Origin: Methanohalobium sp.
Lineage (GTDB): Archaea > Halobacteriota > Methanosarcinia > Methanosarcinales > Methanosarcinaceae
Length of the DNA stretch: 64,000 nt
Reading direction: 5' to 3'
NCBI RefSeq assembly: GCF_018609725.1
Contig: NZ_JAHENT010000161.1
Location: 18,860 to 82,859, forward strand
Positions 1,245-59,596 of the stretch are shown here, one piece after another (within the stretch, counting starts at the first letter, position 1; the number at the start of each line of letters is the position of its first letter). The position numbers were made by a program, and so were the translations under genes. Below the pieces are notes generated by a model. It worked only from the letters and a program-made list of their open reading frames with translations, was not told the DNA's origin and made no database searches.

Positions 1245-2012
1245 TTGAAATTAGAAGCGTTTACTGTAGATAATATACCCCTGATTAAAAAGGGCGATGA
1301 CCTTGCAGAAATAATAAGTAATAACATCGAGTTGGATGACGGAGATATTGCTGTAATCGCTTCCACAATTGTAGCCAAATCCGAAGGTCAGGTATTCAAA
1401 CTTGAAGACATAAAACCTTCTGAAAATGCGGTAAGAATTGCAAACAAAAACCGTTTTACTCCTGCTTTTGTACAGGTGATTCTTAACAGAAGTAGAGAAT
1501 GCCTTGTCGAATCCCCAATAATGCTTGTTGAAACATGTAATGGAAACGTCTGTATAAATGCTGGCATAGATGACTCAAATATAGAAAAAGGTTTCATTCT
1601 CGACCTACCGGAAAATCCTGATGAAAGTGCTGAACTGATAGGTAAACGTCTTACAGAACTTACCGGCAAACAGTTAGGAGTTATCATTACAGATACAAAC
1701 GGCAGGGCATTTAAAATCGGACAGACAGGCGTAGCAGTGGGTGTATATCAAATTCCGGCAATCAAGAACTGGCGCGGTGAAACAGACCTTTACGGTAATG
1801 CTCTTGAAATCACAGAAGAGGCTGTTGCGGATGAAATTGCCGGTACTGCCAATCTGCTGATGGGAGAAGGAGATGGCGGTAACCCTGTGATAGTTGTAAG
1901 AGGGATGGATATTTTAACCGAGGAAAAAAGAACGGTTAAAGAGATGCATCGTCCAGACGATGAAGATATAATCAAAAAGGGATTACGCTGTTTGAATCAG
2001 TCAAATTCCTGA
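1245..2012 (+). CDS. cofE: Coenzyme F420-0:L-glutamate ligase
   Basis: P.IKKGDDLA, STIVAKSEG, NAGIDDSN, IITDTNGRAF, EAVADEIA..ANLLMGEG motifs. Confidence 0.93.
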   Translation: MKLEAFTVDNIPLIKKGDDLAEIISNNIELDDGDIAVIASTIVAKSEGQVFKLEDIKPSENAVRIANKNRFTPAFVQVILNRSRECLVESPIMLVETCNGNVCINAGIDDSNIEKGFILDLPENPDESAELIGKRLTELTGKQLGVIITDTNGRAFKIGQTGVAVGVYQIPAIKNWRGETDLYGNALEITEEAVADEIAGTANLLMGEGDGGNPVIVVRGMDILTEEKRTVKEMHRPDDEDIIKKGLRCLNQSNS

Positions 2013-8482: not shown

Positions 8483-9244
8483 TTGAGTGGGAATTATATG
8501 AGTTTTACACTAGCGGTTCATTCTTCTAAAGGGGGCACTGGAAAAACAAGTATTGCTATAAATCTTGCAGGTGTATATGCATCAGAAGGTTACAACGTAT
8601 GCCTTCTTGATTTTGATTTCAAAGCTCCATCATTCACCAATTTTTTCAAAATAAAACCCAGATACTGGATTAATGATGTCCTTCATGACAGATGCAGTAT
8701 TAAAGATGCAGTAAATGATATTAGCAATGATTTTGATACATCAGGGCGTTTATATGTAGGTCTTACAGACCCGGATATAGAATCCATCCGCGAGATTTCA
8801 AGTAAAGACCGTGACTGGCAGGCAAAAGCTCTGAGATTCCTTATAAGAGCAAAAAAAGAACTTATTGATTCAGGAATAGATGTTGTTATACTGGATACAA
8901 GCCCGGGTATTGACTATGAGTCAATCAATGCTGTTGCGGCATCCGATTATGTCGCCGTTGTAGTCAAACAAAACTATACATGCATCAAAAGTACTGAACA
9001 GGTAATAGACGGCATCTACAACATACTTCACAAAAATTGTGCCATAATTGAAAACATGTGCCATGATGGATATTTATACCCTAAAAATAGTAAAAATCAA
9101 AACACACCTGTTGTAGAATCAATTCCATGTATGTGCGATATAACTGCAAAAACCGACAATGACCTCATCGTATTTTCTGAACCCGACCACGTTTTTTCAA
9201 AGGCGATGTATAAAATATCACAAAATATTACAAAGATGGGGTGA
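8483..9244 (+). CDS. MinD/ParA family ATPase
   Basis: Deviant Walker A KGGTGKTS, LLDFD, ILDTSPG; last codons and stop come from the adjacent mobile element. Confidence 0.88.
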   Translation: MSGNYMSFTLAVHSSKGGTGKTSIAINLAGVYASEGYNVCLLDFDFKAPSFTNFFKIKPRYWINDVLHDRCSIKDAVNDISNDFDTSGRLYVGLTDPDIESIREISSKDRDWQAKALRFLIRAKKELIDSGIDVVILDTSPGIDYESINAVAASDYVAVVVKQNYTCIKSTEQVIDGIYNILHKNCAIIENMCHDGYLYPKNSKNQNTPVVESIPCMCDITAKTDNDLIVFSEPDHVFSKAMYKISQNITKMG

Positions 9245-9687
9245 CAGGGGTACGTGAAAGCCAACGGTTTCTAACCGTTCTCTTTAAATCAAAACACTCT
9301 AAATTGGAATTTAGAGTTAAATTTAAACCATTGATTTAAGTTGTTTAAAAGATATCTTTAAACGAAGTTTAAAGAGTGATAAAACAACCCCGTTGGTTAT
9401 TTTTTTTGAACCAATATTTTTTTATTTTTGTATAGCATATATAGTATTATAGATACAGCAATGCTATCATTGTACAGTTGCTTTGAGCAAGCTGCCTGAT
9501 GTAAGACATTGTTCAGTCGGTTGTTTGTGTATCATCAGGTTCCATCAAATACTGCTTGGTGTCGAGCACAAACGATGCGGCGGAGACAGTGATGCATCGT
9601 AAGGGAGTACTGGCGCCCCGCAAGTGGCAACGTCAAGATGGATGGCGACCACAGAACCCTACGGATTTATCCGTTGGAGTACGTCAG
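9232..9687 (+). mobile_element. Non-autonomous IS200/IS605-type element (PATE-like), copy 1, no ORF
   Basis: Begins right after TTAC (9228-9231); left-end hairpin AACGGTTTCTAACCGTT; right-end hairpin ACGGATTTATCCGT ending GTCAG; inverted homologous copy at 29942-30364. Confidence 0.8.
9471..9687 (+). ncRNA. Putative ~215-nt structured RNA inside element copy 1
   Basis: TATATA at 9438-9443 conserved in both copies; about 18 differences between copies over this core by manual alignment; stems with G-C/G-U alternation. Confidence 0.5.
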
Positions 9688-9696
9688 ACAAAACAG

Positions 9697-10542
9697 TTAA
9701 TCTTTATTTTTGTTCTCCAAATCCTTATTTTTATCTTCCTGTTCTTCATCCAGTATGCGTTTGACATCATACTGTGCATAATTTATCAGATTCTCCATTT
9801 GCATATCATCGATTTCACTATCGGTTTTTTTAAGTTCCATAATGGAATACTGGAGTGCAGCCACGAGAATAAACATTATGAATGCCGCTCCAAATGCAAG
9901 TATCGACCGTTCAATTGGATAAACAGTAACACTTGACTCAAATAACCTTACAGGCAAATCCATTACCAGTAGTGCAGTGATATTACCTGACATATGGTCA
10001 GTTAATATTGCCATGAGTGAGCCCATAAACAACAGTACAAACGTGTATACACTTACATGCATTAGCTTATGATGATATCGTTTATAGAATATAATGAATG
10101 CAAAAAGAACCAATATATGAAACCATGGTAAATAGAAAACTTCTCGACCTGTGTCAAAAAAATACCACAATACAATCAGAGATGAAAAAATATACAGTGC
10201 CGGTTTTTCTTTTTTTGTAATTATAAGTCCGGAAACAACCGAAGATAACATGACAAATACAGGAGTTGCAAAATGAAATAAATTAGCACTAATATGGCTG
10301 GTATTGGTTATAACATGTGTCATAATACCAAAAAACGATACAATTGGTCCAATATAAGGTCCAAGAAGCATACCGTTTAAAGGACCAAAAGCCGCGACTG
10401 AACTAATATTAACTCCTTCTATCCCCTGCAAGTGAAAATCCGGAAGCCAGCTTGCAAAATATGTAAGGATAAATGCCAATGTTATATAGATTAATTTCAA
10501 TTTTCTTTTTTTAAGCAGTTGATAATGGTATTGTATAGACAC
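9697..10542 (-). CDS. Hypothetical multi-pass membrane protein with acidic C-terminal tail
   Basis: 281-aa ORF with about 7-8 hydrophobic segments; no family recognised with confidence. Confidence 0.75.
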   Translation of the reverse strand: MSIQYHYQLLKKRKLKLIYITLAFILTYFASWLPDFHLQGIEGVNISSVAAFGPLNGMLLGPYIGPIVSFFGIMTHVITNTSHISANLFHFATPVFVMLSSVVSGLIITKKEKPALYIFSSLIVLWYFFDTGREVFYLPWFHILVLFAFIIFYKRYHHKLMHVSVYTFVLLFMGSLMAILTDHMSGNITALLVMDLPVRLFESSVTVYPIERSILAFGAAFIMFILVAALQYSIMELKKTDSEIDDMQMENLINYAQYDVKRILDEEQEDKNKDLENKNKD

Positions 10543-10741: not shown

Positions 10742-11176
10742 ATGAAAATTCGAGTCGTAAGTTCAAAAGAAGAAATCGAAAACGTAGATGAAAGCGAAGA
10801 AATAGTACACATGGCTTTCAGACCATCCAATACTGATATTTTTTCACTGGTAATGAGATGTCCAAATCTTAAAGCACTGCATATTCCAAGTTCGTACAAG
10901 CGGACCATTTCAAGCTCTGCCAAGATGTTTCTTGAGATGCAGGGAATCTCATTATTGGAAGGTGACGTTTGGGGACACAGAAAAGACATCAACGAATATT
11001 CTGAAGTATCCAGAAATGTATACAACAGAATAAAGGATTTAAGAGAAAGTGGTCTCTCAGACGAAGAAATAGTTGATAAAATGGTCAGAGAAACTAGACT
11101 AAGCACCGATTTCATCCAGTTCCTTATGAAACAGCAGGAGTCACAGGACACTCAAAAAGCTGCTTCTACAAAGTGA
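10742..11176 (+). CDS. DUF1699 family protein
   Basis: MKIRVVSS..HMAFRPSNTD..LLEGDVWGHRKDINEY; TGA stop supplied by IS right end. Confidence 0.85.
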   Translation: MKIRVVSSKEEIENVDESEEIVHMAFRPSNTDIFSLVMRCPNLKALHIPSSYKRTISSSAKMFLEMQGISLLEGDVWGHRKDINEYSEVSRNVYNRIKDLRESGLSDEEIVDKMVRETRLSTDFIQFLMKQQESQDTQKAASTK

Positions 11177-11750
11177 ATTGCTCCTCCCTTTTGGGAGGAG
11201 CTTCCTGTTTCATAGTTTGTTCTAACAAACACAACTCCACAGGCTCTACCCCTCATCTCGAAGGTGACTTGATGCCTATTAGATTCTGTCTATCCAGTGC
11301 AAACTTTTTAATGTTAACTGATGCATTGATGTCTCTATCATGTGTCGTTTTGCAGCCAGGACATTCCCATTCTCTGTCTCTAAGTTCCAAATCCTTATTA
11401 TAATATCCACATACATGACAGATTTTGCTTGAAGGGTCGAATTTCCCTATAATGATAATGTTTTTACCATACCATTTTGCTTTATACTCTAATTTCTGTA
11501 CAAAACTACTCCATGAAGCATCAGTTATATGCTGTGCTAGATTATGATTTTTCAGCATTCCTTTAACATTCAAAGTTTCCAGACAGACAGCTTGGTTCTC
11601 GCTTATCAATCTGGAACTTAACTTATGCTGGAAATCTTCTCTATGGTTGCTAATCTTCTCATGGTATTGAGCTATCTGTTGTTTCAGTTTTTTGTAATTA
11701 TTAGAACTTTTCTTTTTTCTGCTGAGTCCAATCCTTAAATGATTGGACAT
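11173..11750 (-). pseudogene. tnpB: 5'-truncated IS605-family tnpB remnant with right end
   Basis: RuvC-II (CLETLNVKGM), zinc finger ([15 protein letters not shown]), RuvC-III (HDRDINAS); hairpin GCTCCTCCCAAAAGGGAGGAGC then TTCAC; N-terminal half missing. Confidence 0.9.
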
Positions 11751-29336: not shown

Positions 29337-29945
29337 ATGACATCTGATTCATTGAGACCACTGGTGTCAAAAATAATTGAACCATTTGCAGAAAAAGCAG
29401 TAGATATTGGGCTATCACCCAACATTGTCTCATTTTTATCCCTTATATTTGCTATAACTGCAGGAGTTTTTTTTTATTACTCATATACAAATCCATTGTT
29501 TGTACTAATAGCAGGATTACTGGTGGCTTTAAACTCGTTCCTTGATGCAATGGATGGAATCATGGCAAGACATATGCAGACAGCCAGTTTAAAAGGTGAT
29601 TTTCTGGACCATGTGATTGACCGATATTCTGATATATTTGTTATCTGCAGCATATTTCTGGCAGGTCATGTCCAATGGCAAATAGGACTGGCTGCAATTG
29701 TTGGAGTACTACTAACCAGTTATCTTGGGACACAAGCTCAGGCACTGGATATAGGGAGATATTACGGCGGTATCATGGGCAGAGCCGACAGACTCATTTT
29801 AATAATCGCAGCATCATTAATATATTTCCTGTACCCATCTCTGATTTATGGATTTTCAGTACTTGGATGGACCATTGTAATAATTGCAGTGGGCAGTCAT
29901 GTCACTGCTATTCAAAGAATATACCACATATGGAAACAGTTCTGA
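29337..29945 (+). CDS. CDP-alcohol phosphatidyltransferase (archaetidyl-inositol-phosphate synthase-like)
   Basis: DAMDGIMAR....KGDFLDHVIDR signature; stop supplied by the mobile element. Confidence 0.92.
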   Translation: MTSDSLRPLVSKIIEPFAEKAVDIGLSPNIVSFLSLIFAITAGVFFYYSYTNPLFVLIAGLLVALNSFLDAMDGIMARHMQTASLKGDFLDHVIDRYSDIFVICSIFLAGHVQWQIGLAAIVGVLLTSYLGTQAQALDIGRYYGGIMGRADRLILIIAASLIYFLYPSLIYGFSVLGWTIVIIAVGSHVTAIQRIYHIWKQF

Positions 29946-30364
29946 CGTACTCTAACAGATAAATCCGTTGGGTTCTGTGGTCGCCATCCATCCTGACGTT
30001 GCCACTTGAGGGGCGCCAGTACTCCCTTACGATGCATCTCTGTCTGCACCGTATCGTTTGTATTCGACACCAAGTAATACTTGGATGGAACTTGATGATA
30101 CACAAACAACCGACTGAACAATGTCTTATATCAGGCAGCTTGTTCAAAGCAACTGTACACTGAAGGCATTATTGTATCTATAGAAGTATATATGCTATAA
30201 CATAATTAAAAATTGATGGTTAAAAACAATAACCAACGGAGTCGTTTTATCTCTCTTTAAACTGTAGTTTAAAGATATTGGTAAATTTTCAATTTAGAGT
30301 GTTTTGGTTTAAAGAGAACGGTTAGAAACCGTTGACTTTCACGTACCCCTGTTGCCCTATTTTC
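29942..30364 (-). mobile_element. Non-autonomous IS200/IS605-type element, copy 2
   Basis: Follows TTAC (30368-30365, minus strand); same left and right ends and RNA core as copy 1; ~33-bp deletion in the left arm. Confidence 0.8.
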
Positions 30365-30433
30365 GTAAAAACACCTGTTGGAATTAAGTTGTTCGGTTAA
30401 TTTAATGTAGCACAAGCTTCAATTTTATATCAT

Positions 30434-54741: not shown

Positions 54742-56429
54742 CAGACTGTCCGACAATTCTGGACTACTGTCAATCTATTTTTATCTATAAGGCAAATAAA
54801 TATAAATGATAGATTAATTAATTTATTAACATGGCTTTCATCCAATCATCTAAAGACCAGACATGGCTGCTGCCACCTGATATAAGAGACATGATAAGTT
54901 CAGACCATATCTGTTACCTAGTAGATTCCTTCGTAGAAGAACTCGACTTCAGCGAGTTTGAAGATAGATATGCAGGTGCAGGACACCCTGCATATCATCC
55001 AAGGATACTCTGCAAAGTGCTGATACAGGCAATGATCGATGGTATCAGATCATCACGTACCATCGCAAGATGTGTACGTGAGAATGTAGTATACATGTAC
55101 CTCGCTGAGAAACTGACTCCGGATTTCAGAACTATAAGTGATTTCAGGAAGGATAATGGTGATTTGATCAGAGAAATCTTCAAAAACACCGTTAATGCTG
55201 CCAGGGAAGTCGGGTCTGTGGGGATGGAACAGATGAGTATCGATGGGTCTGTAGTTAAAGCGTCTGCATCCAATAACAGTACTGTTACAAGAAATGAACT
55301 GGATGTTATAGAGGATTACATCGACAAGATGCTGAAAGAAAGCATTGTAACTGATGAACTCGAAGATGAACAATTACAAGACTGCAGGGGCTACGATCAG
55401 CTTGATGAAAACGGCAAAAACCGAGTTAAGTCTGTCTGTAAGAAGTATGCTGATAAGCTTAATAATACAAATCAGGATAAAAACTCGAGATATCTAAACA
55501 ATGTAAAGGTGGCTAAACAAGAATCCGATAAGGATACCACCAAAGGATTTAGTTTAACTGATCCTGAATCAAGGTTTATCAAGAACAAGAAGGGTAGAAT
55601 CGAACTGGGATACAACACTCAAATCACTGTTGACCATAAGGAAGGAATCATAATCGCAAACGATGTTTGTCAGGATAGAAACGATGCTCATCAGCTTAAA
55701 CCACAACTTGAACTTGTTGAAAAGTACTGTGGGAGATTAGGTAAAAATACGAAAATATGTGCTGACAGTGGTTACATTCATGAAAAGAATATACAATTCT
55801 TGAAACAGAAAGAACTGGATCCCTATATACCGGAACAAATCGATAATAGTTATAAGAAAAATCCTAAACCTGAAAATAATGCTGAACATCCTTACCATGT
55901 TTCAAGATTTATTTATGATGAACAAAGGGATGTGTATATTTGCCCTGAAAACGGGATTTTGACATTTTCATATGAATCATATGATGGAGACAGACCAGAA
56001 AAACGTCGAGTTTACAGAGGTATACATTGCAGAGATTGTAAATCCAAATATCAATGTACCAACAGAAAGGATGGGATACGTCAGTTAAAAATCACTTATG
56101 TATCAGAAGATAGGAAACATCTGAGAGATAAGATGAAAACTGAACAAGCAAAGAGAATATTTGAACAAAGGAAACATACTGTTGAACCTGCTATCGGAAA
56201 TTACAAGCAGAATTTGAGATTCACAGAATTTATTACAAGAGGGTTAAATTCTGTAAAAACTGAATTTAATCTGGTTTGTGCTGCTGTTAATCTAAAGAAA
56301 ATATGGATGAATTCTGGATAATACAAATAATTGATTGAAAATCAATTATTTGTATTGTAGAATAACAAAAAATTCTGCAAAATAATATGGTACGTATTAT
56401 TGTTTAACTAATTATTGTCAGACAGCCTG
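54742..56429 (+). mobile_element. IS1182-family insertion sequence
   Basis: 16-bp IRs CAGACTGTCCGACAAT / CAGGCTGTCTGACAAT; 4-bp TGAA direct repeats at 54738-54741 and 56430-56433. Confidence 0.92.
54831..56321 (+). CDS. IS1182-family DDE transposase
   Basis: LLP....I..DH, G.PAYHP..L.K, PDFRTI.DFR, IDGS...A.A, GYN.Q, ADSGY, R...VEP..G..K. Confidence 0.92.
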   Translation: MAFIQSSKDQTWLLPPDIRDMISSDHICYLVDSFVEELDFSEFEDRYAGAGHPAYHPRILCKVLIQAMIDGIRSSRTIARCVRENVVYMYLAEKLTPDFRTISDFRKDNGDLIREIFKNTVNAAREVGSVGMEQMSIDGSVVKASASNNSTVTRNELDVIEDYIDKMLKESIVTDELEDEQLQDCRGYDQLDENGKNRVKSVCKKYADKLNNTNQDKNSRYLNNVKVAKQESDKDTTKGFSLTDPESRFIKNKKGRIELGYNTQITVDHKEGIIIANDVCQDRNDAHQLKPQLELVEKYCGRLGKNTKICADSGYIHEKNIQFLKQKELDPYIPEQIDNSYKKNPKPENNAEHPYHVSRFIYDEQRDVYICPENGILTFSYESYDGDRPEKRRVYRGIHCRDCKSKYQCTNRKDGIRQLKITYVSEDRKHLRDKMKTEQAKRIFEQRKHTVEPAIGNYKQNLRFTEFITRGLNSVKTEFNLVCAAVNLKKIWMNSG

Positions 56430-58018: not shown

Positions 58019-59335
58019 TCAGCAGAGGGAGGAATTGCGACCATCGGTTTTTATATCCGGATTTAAGTTAAGTCTGTCTAGTTGATAGGTATATCCATCG
58101 AATCTCTGTACTAGTTCGAGATATTTATGGTTTATACCCTGTGCAATCCTTTTAGCACCGTTTTTGATGTCGAAACTACCGCTACTCCTGCATGCGACTG
58201 CACCTTTCCAGATACCTTTGTATTTTCCTTTTGGAACGACTGCTTTTATGATGTCTCCTGATTGGAAACTGAATATGTATTTGATTCTTGGTGCAGGTTT
58301 CCTCGGGAAACCATATTTATCCAGCTTACATCTTTTATAACTGCCTCTTCCTTTAGCATGGATATGTAGGACACTATTAGTTTTAAACTTCAGTTCATCC
58401 AGTGTGGATTTGCCTACACAGCACGCATCGAAGTGATGGTCTTTCGGCAAGTTTAATTTTATCCTGTTCATCTTGGTTAGTGCACCTGTACCGCATTCTA
58501 CAGGTAGTTTTGTATCTTTCAGCACTTCAAAGACCCTCCACCTTGTAGAGTTAACTATCGTTGTATCTTTCAGAGGTTTCTTGGCTTTTTCATGCACTCG
58601 AGGGTAACCGTATTCATCAGCTGTCATGTTACCTTTGTTCTGGTTGCAATCATGACAGGCTATGGTCAGATTGCTGACTCTGTTAGAACCACCTCTGCTT
58701 CTCGGTACGATGTGTTCCACCTCTAACTGAACATCCTGTCTGCCGCAATATACACAGGTTCTCTGGAATTTCTCAAGCAGATACTCTCTTACTTCGTAAC
58801 CCTGCAGAGTTCCCTGCTGGTACTCGACACCTTCAATTTCAGGGGTTTCCATCAGCTGTGTGTCGAATTTGATATTTTCGTAAGTTATTGAGCTTATAGG
58901 AATCAATTTCATCAATTTTCTAATCCATGATTGTATGTTGTCCACTCTGCTCTGCAGAGATGGGGGCAGCCATCCTTTCGTTTTTTTTCTGTTATCGAAT
59001 CTGGGTTTTCTGTATCTCAGGTTCTGTGATCTTCTCCTGCGTCTGAAATTCCTTCTATCATCCAGTTTCTTTTTAATATCAGCTCTGTGGTTAATCTGGG
59101 CTAACCAGACTACATCTCTGTTGTTCTTCAATATAGTTAATCCAGTGTATCTTGAACCGTAGTCGATTTTGGGTGTGAAATCATATTTTACGTCGTCTGA
59201 TTTCAGTTCTTTGAGCCTGATTGTAAATGGATATTTCTTATGTATAGTAGCCTTTCCGGCTTTCAGCAGTATTCTTGCTTTAGCCGGATGACACGGTGTT
59301 AAAGGTTTCTTGTTCCTGTTGAGTACGAATACCAT
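58019..59335 (-). CDS. iscB: RNA-guided endonuclease IscB
   Basis: PLMP-like PLTPCHPAKAR, RuvC-I IDYGS, Arg-rich bridge helix RRNFRRRRR, RuvC-II ENIKFD, HNH CVYC..EHIVPRSRGGSN..C..CN, RuvC-III HHFDA. Confidence 0.95.
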   Translation of the reverse strand: MVFVLNRNKKPLTPCHPAKARILLKAGKATIHKKYPFTIRLKELKSDDVKYDFTPKIDYGSRYTGLTILKNNRDVVWLAQINHRADIKKKLDDRRNFRRRRRSQNLRYRKPRFDNRKKTKGWLPPSLQSRVDNIQSWIRKLMKLIPISSITYENIKFDTQLMETPEIEGVEYQQGTLQGYEVREYLLEKFQRTCVYCGRQDVQLEVEHIVPRSRGGSNRVSNLTIACHDCNQNKGNMTADEYGYPRVHEKAKKPLKDTTIVNSTRWRVFEVLKDTKLPVECGTGALTKMNRIKLNLPKDHHFDACCVGKSTLDELKFKTNSVLHIHAKGRGSYKRCKLDKYGFPRKPAPRIKYIFSFQSGDIIKAVVPKGKYKGIWKGAVACRSSGSFDIKNGAKRIAQGINHKYLELVQRFDGYTYQLDRLNLNPDIKTDGRNSSLC

Positions 59336-59596
59336 GGATATTACTCCTTTCTCTGCTTGATGCAGGTTACGCGGCTTATCAGCCGTCTCCCTTCGACAAA
59401 GTTATCCCAGTTTGTCATGCACGCACACTGTCCCTACCTCTCAGGACTGTTTAATGCAGTACGATAGAGCAGCGGACTAGGGAAGCATCCGAGGGTATCA
59501 TGGCCGGGATAACGTAGTTCCTTTAAGGAACTGAGTCTGGTCAATCAGGGCTTTCCGCAGGGACAAGCCCACCTCCTTTAGAGGTGGGTTATTGAC
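59336..59596 (-). ncRNA. omegaRNA (HEARO-type) scaffold; guide is the flank from 59597 upward
   Basis: GTCAATAACCCACCTCTAAAGGAGGTGGGCTTG..GATTGACCAGACTCAG..CTACGTT..GGATGCTTCCCTAGTCC..TTGTCGAAGGGA; GTCAA/TTGAC pairing. Confidence 0.88.

What the first reader, a model, noticed from the sequence alone, without database searches (positions are those of the whole stretch)
9232..9687. ORF-less IS605-type element carrying its own promoter and a ~215-nt structured RNA: possible stand-alone guide-RNA cassette
Seen: two inverted copies (here and 29942-30364), both starting after TTAC and ending GTCAG, with end hairpins. A TATATA box is conserved 28 nt before a core (9471-9687) that differs at only ~18 positions between copies, while the left arm has indels. 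Stems include GTTTGTGT with GCACAAAC/ATACAAAC (G-C vs G-U), CGATGC..GCATCG and TGGCG..CGTCA. The core shows no tnpB coding remnant and does not resemble the tnpB-overlapping tails at 11173, 19208 or 56430. Known: TnpB reRNAs end at the right-end TCAN and use the flank as guide; the TAM equals the target site. Inference: a mobile trans-acting guide cassette (guide here ACAAAACAGTTAATCT, TAM TTAC) for a TnpB or domesticated TnpB elsewhere, or a new RNA cargo class.
Basis: partly seen in the sequence, partly recalled or inferred. Interest (0 to 1): 0.8.

Follow-up and report, generated by a model that had tools for sequence, protein, structure and literature searches.

The report
Gene-less IS605 mini-transposon carrying guide RNA
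This is a 456-base protein-less offshoot of a TnpB-carrying IS200/IS605 transposon in the methanogen Methanohalobium; it keeps the transposon ends, a promoter-like box and the guide-RNA scaffold, which makes it a clear archaeal example of an already described kind of element (a PATE that encodes an omegaRNA).

Summary
The two copies are real: 9232-9687 (+) and 29942-30364 (-). Each sits directly after TTAC, ends in TCAG and makes no target duplication. A sister genome has clean empty sites for both. The family has at least 13 copies in this genome and is confined to Methanohalobium.

The last 113 nt of the core are homologous to the last 20 codons plus the right end of a 334-aa TnpB gene carried by a sibling element with the same ends. 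That stretch is the omegaRNA scaffold, and its helices show strong compensatory covariation.

The 5' 104 nt have no detectable homolog. They fold into two hairpins that are as conserved as the transposon ends. The long hairpin matches a parental hairpin in size and position.

Best reading: a non-autonomous PATE transcribed from an internal TATA box into an omegaRNA that reads its guide from the right flank and uses TnpB in trans.

PATEs that encode omegaRNAs, and expressed archaeal PATE RNAs, are already published. This is a new member of a known kind, of modest interest.

The parts
9228..9231 (+). TTAC target / transposon-adjacent motif (TAM) directly 5' of the left end of copy A
   Evidence: 9 of 10 complete copies in three genomes sit right after TTAC; the tenth sits after TTAT. 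The empty site in G001 breaks exactly here.
9232..9279 (+). Left end (LE) with the subterminal hairpin AACGGTT-TCT-AACCGTT (9263-9279)
   Evidence: 94% identical to the LE of the tnpB-bearing sibling C24 and to the LE in front of tnpA in G002. The ssDNA fold shows the hairpin.
9280..9377 (.). Nested 98-nt AT-rich palindromic mini-element (CTCTTTAAA...TTTAAAGAG) inserted right after the LE hairpin. It is not part of the ancestral element.
   Evidence: Absent from copies C28, C88, G1_b and G2_C7 and from the tnpB sibling. At least 19 copies occur in the genome, always just 3' of LE hairpins of several IS605-type families.
9378..9423 (+). Inner left-end segment, shared with the tnpB-bearing sibling up to its T-rich promoter box
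   Evidence: 83% identical to C24 positions 51-96.
9424..9470 (+). Promoter-like spacer with the TATA-like box ATATATA (9437-9443). A second T-rich box at about 9417-9430 aligns with the parental tnpB TATA.
   Evidence: A TATA-like box is kept at the same position in both subfamilies, although the spacer is only 63% identical. No transcript data are available.
9471..9574 (+). 5' module of the core: hairpin P1 (9483-9516) and the long bipartite hairpin P2 (9520-9576)
   Evidence: - 98.6% of cells are paired in 14 copies, against 33-44% in slid controls.
- There are many G-U pairs, so the fold is specific to the + strand.
- It is 84% identical between subfamilies, as conserved as the LE and the 3' half.
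- No homolog was found by blastn, nhmmer, blastx or Pfam.
- A covariance model finds it only in Methanohalobium.
9575..9687 (+). omegaRNA (reRNA) scaffold, made of the remnant of the last 20 tnpB codons plus the right end. Helices: 9576-9584/9593-9601, 9602-9605/9617-9620, 9624-9627/9649-9652 with 9631-9635/9643-9647, and the RE hairpin 9658-9665/9670-9677. It ends in TCAG (9684-9687).
   Evidence: - 84% identical to the tail of the C24 tnpB element.
- blastx matches the TnpB C-termini.
- In 28 sequences 94.4% of cells are paired, against 25-47% in slid controls, and 13 pairs change on both sides.
9688..9703 (+). Predicted 16-nt guide of copy A (ACAAAACAGTTAATCT), followed by a T-run at 9703-9712
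   Evidence: The flank is unique in the genome. In the G001 empty site it follows TTAT with one mismatch. Its use as a guide is inferred.
29942..30364 (-). Copy B, with the same architecture and a shortened nested insert. TTAC lies at 30365-30368 on the minus strand, and the predicted guide AACTGTTTCCATATGT is the reverse complement of 29926-29941.
   Evidence: The empty site in G001 reads TTAC|AACTTTTTCC. The element supplies the last codon and the stop of the CDP-alcohol phosphatidyltransferase gene.

Best explanation
The element is a non-autonomous IS200/IS605 derivative, a 'homogeneous PATE', of Methanohalobium.

Shown:
- It inserts 3' of TTAC without a target duplication and ends in TCAG.
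- It shares its left and right ends with a tnpA-tnpB element (seen in G002) and with tnpB-only siblings (C24 in this genome, six in G001).
- It has no ORF.
- Its last 113 nt are the structurally conserved omegaRNA scaffold of those siblings.

Inferred:
- An internal archaeal TATA box starts a transcript near 9450-9470.
- The transcript runs through two 5' hairpins and the 113-nt scaffold, past TCAG, and about 16 nt into the right flank.
- TnpB made by a sibling element binds this RNA in trans.
- After TnpA excises the element, the rejoined site (TTAC plus flank) is TAM plus target. TnpB cuts it, and repair from the sister chromosome restores the element.

On this reading the ORF-less element is a guide-only parasite of both the TnpA and the TnpB of its relatives. 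The 5' module probably replaces the hairpins that lie inside the tnpB coding region in the parent.
For: Mobility and boundaries:
- Exact empty sites exist for both window copies.
- TTAC lies before 9 of 10 complete copies, TTAT before the tenth.
- At least 13 hits occur in this genome, including 4 copies that differ by only 2-5 nt, which indicates a recent burst.

Parentage:
- The homology map to the C24 tnpB element shows LE and RE shared and tnpB replaced.
- The C24 TnpB is 334 aa with the TNB domain and the D/E/D motifs.
- G001 has six intact siblings.
- G002 has an LE-tnpA-tnpB element.

RNA scaffold:
- 94.4% of cells are paired, 13 pairs change on both sides, and one helix is rewritten CGGUG/CACCG to CGUCA/UGGCG.
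- The shared 113 nt match the 116-nt essential scaffold of ISDra2, which likewise overlaps a dispensable TnpB C-terminal tail (PMC10097598).

Strand and 5' module:
- The + strand folds at -73.7 kcal/mol (z -2.0), the - strand at -58.3 (z -0.8).
- G-U pairs make the fold strand-specific.
- The 5' module is as conserved as the ends.
- The parent has a 58-nt hairpin with the same GUUG...CAAU base at the same position.

Other:
- A TATA-like box is kept in a spacer that is only 63% identical.
- Each guide is unique.
Against: - No transcript, transcription start or RNP data exist.
- The TATA box sits in AT-rich DNA. One copy (C88) has it altered to ATAGATA.
- Copy A carries two mismatches in scaffold helix 1.
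- Covariation in the 5' module rests on essentially one subfamily split. Only 2 pairs change on both sides, no better than shuffles for that measure.
- Only one intact cognate TnpB and no intact cognate TnpA were found in this 97%-complete, 161-contig assembly.
- An orthologous copy without a left end (C76 / G1_c) diverged more in the core (90-91% identity) than in its flanks (96%). That argues against strong purifying selection on that copy, unless gene conversion is involved.
Confidence: 0.6

Rival explanations
1. An inert hitch-hiker. The element is only a TnpA-mobilised mini-transposon. Its conservation reflects young age, the TnpA-binding end hairpins and inheritance of the parental fold. 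The RNA is not made, or has no role.
For: - Copies are only 2-35 substitutions apart.
- The double-change count in the 5' module is not above shuffles.
- The orthologous copy without a left end diverged more than its flanks.
- Terminal-only PATEs of 52 bp still appear mobile in Haloquadratum, so RNA cargo is not needed for spread (PMC3119063).
Against: - Independent one-off deletion derivatives (C73, C149, C126) did not spread, whereas this lineage persists in three species.
- TnpA needs only the ends, yet the internal 217 nt are as conserved as the ends and the spacer is not.
- A whole helix was rewritten by compensatory changes.
- The fold is strand-specific through G-U pairs.
Confidence: 0.2
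2. A TnpB-independent non-coding RNA. The transcript acts on its own, for example as a decoy for TnpA through its RE-like hairpin, or as an antisense or read-through regulator of the gene it abuts.
For: - PATE-derived RNAs are expressed in Halobacterium, and overexpression changed growth. Those authors proposed a TnpA-decoy role (PMC4615843).
- Both window copies sit in the last codons of genes, and read-through from copy B would be antisense to the lipid-synthesis gene.
- The 5' module has no counterpart in known omegaRNAs.
Against: - The conserved part is exactly the TnpB scaffold.
- Insertion sites and flanks differ for every copy and are polymorphic between species, so no common regulatory target exists.
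Confidence: 0.15
3. A guide supply for a domesticated, nuclease-dead TnpB (TldR-like) that regulates host genes.
For: The genome holds 61 TNB-domain hits of many lineages, so a domesticated copy cannot be excluded.
Against: - The cognate TnpB (C24) keeps its RuvC D/E/D motifs.
- The guides are arbitrary flanks, unique and polymorphic.
- The element is still mobile.
Confidence: 0.03

Closest known systems
PATEs (palindrome-associated transposable elements) of IS200/IS605, especially 'homogeneous' PATEs of Haloquadratum walsbyi (Dyall-Smith et al. 2011, PMC3119063) and the omegaRNA-encoding PATEs noted by Meers et al. 2023 (10.1101/2023.03.14.532601)
   Same: - No ORF and no inverted terminal repeats.
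- Near-terminal palindromes shared with IS605-type transposons.
- A 4-nt targeting sequence and no target duplication.
- Strain-specific insertions, and expansion of one type at more than 85-90% identity.
- Some retain the C-terminal coding part of tnpB.
- They are attacked by about 100-bp palindromic repeats that insert at the near-terminal palindrome.
- The published statement that PATEs often encode omegaRNAs used in trans by TnpB.
   Different: - This one is in a halophilic methanogen (Methanohalobium).
- It is not a simple fusion of the ends. About 980 nt of tnpB are replaced by about 150 nt with no homolog, which supply a TATA-like box and two conserved hairpins upstream of the scaffold.
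TnpB omegaRNA / reRNA (ISDra2; Karvelis 2021, Altae-Tran 2021; structure in Nakagawa et al. 2023, PMC10097598)
   Same: - The scaffold abuts the right-end boundary and the guide is the 3' flank.
- The TAM equals the transposon target motif.
- The essential scaffold is about 113-116 nt and overlaps a poorly conserved TnpB C-terminal tail.
- It has several stems plus a possible pseudoknot between the last nucleotides and the 5' part of the scaffold.
- The region 5' of the scaffold is dispensable in ISDra2.
   Different: - There is no sequence or Rfam-model similarity.
- The TAM is TTAC rather than TTGAT.
- The RNA is not embedded in a tnpB mRNA.
- The pseudoknot is only a candidate, because the partner positions do not vary.
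Archaeal sotRNAs and PATE-derived ncRNAs (Halobacterium VNG_R0052; Pyrococcus sRK48/52; the HgcC family), Gomes-Filho et al. 2015, PMC4615843
   Same: These are intergenic archaeal RNAs derived from the 3' end of IS1341-type tnpB with the RE hairpin, and they are expressed from ORF-less LE-RE fusions.
   Different: - Those RNAs were shown to be expressed; this one was not.
- No classical BRE-TATA was found for the sotRNAs, whereas here a TATA-like box is conserved.
- There is no hit to HgcC or any other Rfam model.
Stand-alone omegaRNA loci of OMEGA systems (Altae-Tran et al. 2021; recalled from memory and from earlier scan notes, not read here)
   Same: A guide-RNA scaffold without an adjacent effector gene, presumed to act in trans.
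   Different: Here the locus is a complete mobile unit with both transposon ends and demonstrated insertion polymorphism.

Membership tests
IS200/IS605 non-autonomous element (PATE) | Inserts 3' of a conserved tetra- or pentanucleotide and makes no target-site duplication | tested here: met
   TTAC lies before 9 of 10 complete copies, TTAT before the tenth. Empty sites in G001 are restored exactly by removing 9232-9687 and 29942-30364.
IS200/IS605 non-autonomous element (PATE) | Subterminal hairpins at both ends and no terminal inverted repeats | tested here: met
   The LE hairpin is AACGGTT-TCT-AACCGTT and the RE hairpin is (C)CNACGGAT-TT-ATCCGTNGG. They resemble each other in sequence.
IS200/IS605 non-autonomous element (PATE) | Ends shared with an element that encodes a Y1 TnpA and/or TnpB | tested here: met
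   The same LE precedes tnpA-tnpB in G002. The same LE and RE flank the 334-aa tnpB on C24.
IS200/IS605 non-autonomous element (PATE) | Too short to encode a transposase, with no coding capacity | tested here: met
   No ORF of 40 aa or more starts and ends within the element (the ORFs listed there that touch it run in from or out into the flanks). The three forward frames of the core give no Pfam hit at E<=10.
IS200/IS605 non-autonomous element (PATE) | Mobilised in trans by a cognate TnpA | not testable with these tools
   The insertion polymorphism shows past mobility. In this assembly the cognate tnpA was found only as 27-29-aa remnants.
TnpB omegaRNA (reRNA) | Derived from the 3' end of tnpB plus the right end, terminating at the element boundary | tested here: met
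   Positions 9575-9687 are 84% identical to the C24 tnpB tail plus RE. blastx matches the TnpB C-termini.
TnpB omegaRNA (reRNA) | Conserved secondary structure supported by covariation | tested here: met
   In 28 sequences 94.4% of cells are paired, against 25-47% in slid controls. 13 pairs change on both sides, and all 5 pairs of helix 62-66/74-78 are compensated.
TnpB omegaRNA (reRNA) | A pseudoknot linking the nucleotides just 5' of the guide to the 5' part of the scaffold | tested here: inconclusive
   Complementary candidates exist: GUAC (9608-9611) or the loop GAC (9585-9587) against the terminal GUACGUCAG. The columns barely vary, so covariation says nothing.
TnpB omegaRNA (reRNA) | Transcribed, extends into the flank as a guide, and is bound by TnpB | not testable with these tools
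Rfam families (HEARO RF02033, IS605-orfB motifs, HgcC RF00062 and all others) | A match to the family covariance model | tested here: not met
   No family reaches E<=10 on the core. HEARO matches only at 59382-59596.
SMR-A-type small mobile repeat (for the nested 9280-9377 block) | An element of about 100 bp with prominent inverted ends that inserts at the near-terminal palindromes of IS605-type elements and PATEs | tested here: met
   It is 98 nt with CTCTTTAAA/TTTAAAGAG ends. At least 19 copies occur, all directly 3' of LE hairpins of different sequence families. The description of the class is in PMC3119063. No sequence relationship to the Haloquadratum SMRs was tested.

The most novel reading that the evidence does not exclude
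The 104-nt 5' module may be an evolved, non-coding replacement for the part of the omegaRNA precursor that normally lies inside tnpB. With its own promoter it would make the guide RNA fully independent of tnpB transcription. That would create a 'guide-only' hyperparasite lineage that outnumbers its TnpB donor (at least 13 to 1 in this genome), competes with it for the nuclease, and has persisted through the divergence of three species. Alternatively, the module could be a separate functional RNA domain.
Probability: 0.25. Interest if true: 0.55.

Novelty: new member of a known kind. Interest (0 to 1): 0.3.

Why it matters
It gives a well-delimited archaeal case, with exact boundaries, empty sites, a parent element and a donor TnpB, of a guide-RNA-only IS200/IS605 derivative that has outgrown its protein-coding relatives.

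It supports the view that the transposase, the nuclease and the guide RNA of these elements are separable modules that can parasitise one another.

It offers a natural minimal scaffold of 113 nt for a compact 334-aa archaeal TnpB with a TTAC TAM.

It does not change the known picture. The concept is already published.

Tried and rejected
- Rfam at gathering threshold on the window, and at E<=10 on the region: nothing on the core.
- Search for an origin of the 5' half. blastn and nhmmer against the whole genome hit only family copies. blastx against all genome ORFs found TnpB only for nt 103-162 of the core. Pfam on the three frames found nothing. Ungapped identity to the equivalent parental tnpB segment was 24%, which is chance level. 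The idea that the 5' half is a recognisable decayed tnpB coding region is therefore rejected at the sequence level. Only a positional and structural analogy remains.
- Pattern scans of genome contigs and metagenome contigs gave only the known Methanohalobium copies plus chance matches.
- A covariance model of the 5' half, run over 151 genomes of the family, hit only the genus.
- The only intact TnpA in the assembly (C45) has unrelated ends and 27% identity to the cognate TnpA, so it is not an obvious mobiliser.
- A right-end relic in another genus (L022) with an adjacent TATATAT looked like a second cassette, but it is a solo fragment without a left end.
- The first alignment (A2) was discarded, because loci from the genome search are not re-oriented.
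- The sigma-70 promoter scan was not used, because the host is an archaeon.

Full report
**1. What is there**

The window comes from a 2.09-Mb, 161-contig archaeal genome (window = C161:18860-82859). The genus is Methanohalobium: contigs of a sister genome are titled 'Methanohalobium sp.'. DUF1699 and archease genes flank the sites.

Copy A (9232-9687, +) and copy B (29942-30364, -) align at 87% identity. They differ at 17 positions in the 217-nt core. Both follow TTAC and end in GTCAG.

The boundaries are proven by empty sites. When the two flanks of copy A are joined, they match a congeneric genome (G001) continuously at 96% identity, with the junction ...AAAATATTAT|ACAAAGCAGTTAATC. The same test for copy B gives 94% identity and ...GTTTTTAC|AACTTTTTCCATATG. 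There is no target duplication.

Both insertions lie in the last codons of genes. They change only the last one to three residues.

**2. Family and distribution**

BLAST and a covariance model of the 5' half find 13 hits in this genome, several of them at contig ends. They find 4 in G001 and 2 in G002. No hits occur in the other 148 genomes of the family, that is, in 15 other genera. Pattern scans of GTDB genomes and of JGI metagenomes add nothing.

There are two subfamilies. Four subfamily-II copies in this genome differ by only 2-5 nt, which indicates a recent burst. Of the ten complete copies, nine follow TTAC and one follows TTAT.

**3. Parentage**

[quoted passage not shown] That element is 1187 nt and encodes a 334-aa TnpB with a TTG start, the Cas12f1-like TNB domain and GVDLN / MENL / HADANAA motifs. 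G001 has six intact siblings with a 335-aa frame.

In G002 the same LE precedes a Y1 tnpA, followed by the same tnpB as a pseudogene. The autonomous form is therefore LE-tnpA-tnpB-RE. In this genome the cognate tnpA survives only as 27-29-aa stubs in two one-off deletion derivatives, C149 and C73.

Homology map of copy A against C24:

| Copy A positions | Relation to C24 |
|---|---|
| 1-48 | LE |
| 49-146 | foreign insert, absent from C24 |
| 147-192 | inner LE, up to the T-rich promoter box |
| 193-343 | no homolog |
| 344-456 | last 20 tnpB codons plus 49 nt of RE, 84% identical |

blastx confirms the remnant RCGGDSDAS*GSTGAPQVAT against QCGADRDASYGSTGAPQVAT.

**4. The 3' half is an omegaRNA scaffold**

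I aligned 28 tails: ORF-less copies, tnpB-bearing copies, deletion derivatives and two from other genera. They give four helices with 94.4% of cells paired, against 25-47% when the partners are slid. Thirteen pairs change on both sides, and no shuffle reaches the observed covariation score.

One helix is completely rewritten, from CGGUG/CACCG in tnpB-bearing copies to CGUCA/UGGCG in ORF-less ones. In the parent the loop of this helix holds the tnpB stop codon.

The shared 113 nt correspond closely to ISDra2. There the essential scaffold is 116 nt, the 5' region is dispensable, and the scaffold overlaps a disordered, non-essential TnpB C-terminal tail (PMC10097598). Candidate pseudoknot partners exist, but their columns do not vary, so the pseudoknot is untested.

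Copy A itself has two mismatches in helix 1.

**5. The 5' half**

Positions 9471-9574 fold into a 34-nt hairpin and a 57-nt bipartite hairpin. In 14 copies 98.6% of cells are paired, against 33-44% in slid controls. Twelve pairs vary on one side through G-U intermediates. Only two pairs change on both sides, which is no better than shuffles for that measure.

The many G-U pairs make the fold strand-specific. The + strand folds at -73.7 kcal/mol (z -2.0) and the - strand at -58.3 (z -0.8).

Identity between the two subfamilies, by segment:

| Segment | Identity |
|---|---|
| 5' half of core | 84% |
| 3' half of core | 85% |
| LE | 87% |
| Promoter spacer | 63% |

This argues for constraint on the 5' half. 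Its origin is unknown. No blastn, nhmmer, blastx or Pfam signal was found, and its ungapped identity to the equivalent tnpB segment is at chance level, 24%.

The parent does fold a 58-nt hairpin at the same place, directly 5' of helix 1, with the same GUUG...CAAU base. The module therefore looks like a non-coding stand-in for the hairpins embedded in tnpB. This is inference.

**6. Promoter**

ATATATA at 9437-9443 lies 28 nt before 9471. Subfamily II has ATATTTA at the same aligned position. A T-rich box about 15 nt upstream aligns with the parental tnpB TATA.

An archaeal transcription start about 25 nt downstream would fall at about 9450-9470, where high conservation begins. No transcript data could be obtained.

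**7. Mechanism proposed**

See Best explanation. In short, the element would be a guide-only PATE that borrows TnpA for movement and TnpB for homing. The flank-derived guides are unique in the genome. Together with TTAC they reconstitute TAM plus target at the empty site.

**8. Comparison with the known**

- The PATE class was defined in Haloquadratum (PMC3119063). That paper also describes about 110-bp palindromic repeats (SMR-A) that insert at the near-terminal palindromes.
- PATE-derived RNAs are expressed in Halobacterium (PMC4615843).
- Earlier notes of this scan describe several similar cases. I treat these as leads only.

The kind of element is therefore known. This family is a new, genus-restricted member whose distinctive features are the unrelated 5' module and the internal TATA-like box.

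**9. Verdict**

The novelty is modest, and I score interest at 0.3.

Noticed in passing
window 9280-9377 (also in shortened form inside copy B, about 30265-30316): A 98-nt AT-rich palindromic mini-element (CTCTTTAAA...TTTAAAGAG) is nested in the left end. At least 19 copies occur in the genome, each directly 3' of the left-end hairpin of several different IS605-type families, and some are nested in each other. It behaves like the SMR-A repeats of Haloquadratum. Copies that carry it still transposed, so it does not abolish mobility.
   Followed up: partly
window 58019-59596 (-): A 438-aa IscB (RRXRR plus HNH domains) with a full-length HEARO/omegaRNA match (144.7 bits) immediately upstream. The genome therefore carries both OMEGA nuclease types.
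   Followed up: no
L003 (G000 C76:15759-16044) and L025 (G001): An orthologous copy that lacks the left end is shared by two species. Its flanks are 96% identical and its promoter spacer 98.6%, but its core only 90-91%. The G000 copy is closest to copy B (9 differences). This suggests gene conversion between copies.
   Followed up: partly
L060 (G002 C3:1-1100, minus strand): The autonomous relative: the same left-end hairpin, a Y1 tnpA of about 133 aa, then an overlapping tnpB (MILTYKIKHN...) with an in-frame stop. Here the motif before the left end reads TTGC, not TTAC.
   Followed up: partly
genome-wide (G000): There are 61 TNB-domain (TnpB) hits, but only one intact Y1 TnpA, and that one belongs to an unrelated family. 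Even so, subfamily II of the cassette shows a recent burst. This is the same paradox that was noted for Haloquadratum.
   Followed up: partly
window 11253-11750 (-) and 10742-11176 (+): A 165-aa C-terminal TnpB fragment of a different family lies next to a DUF1699 gene. Its tail shows no similarity to the cassette.
   Followed up: no
window 54831-56321 (+): A 496-aa DDE transposase (DDE_Tnp_1_6 / DUF772).
   Followed up: no
L022 (G009, another genus of the family), 1500-1625 minus strand: A solo right-end / omegaRNA-tail relic, 70% identical, without a left end or tnpB, directly downstream of a gene end.
   Followed up: partly
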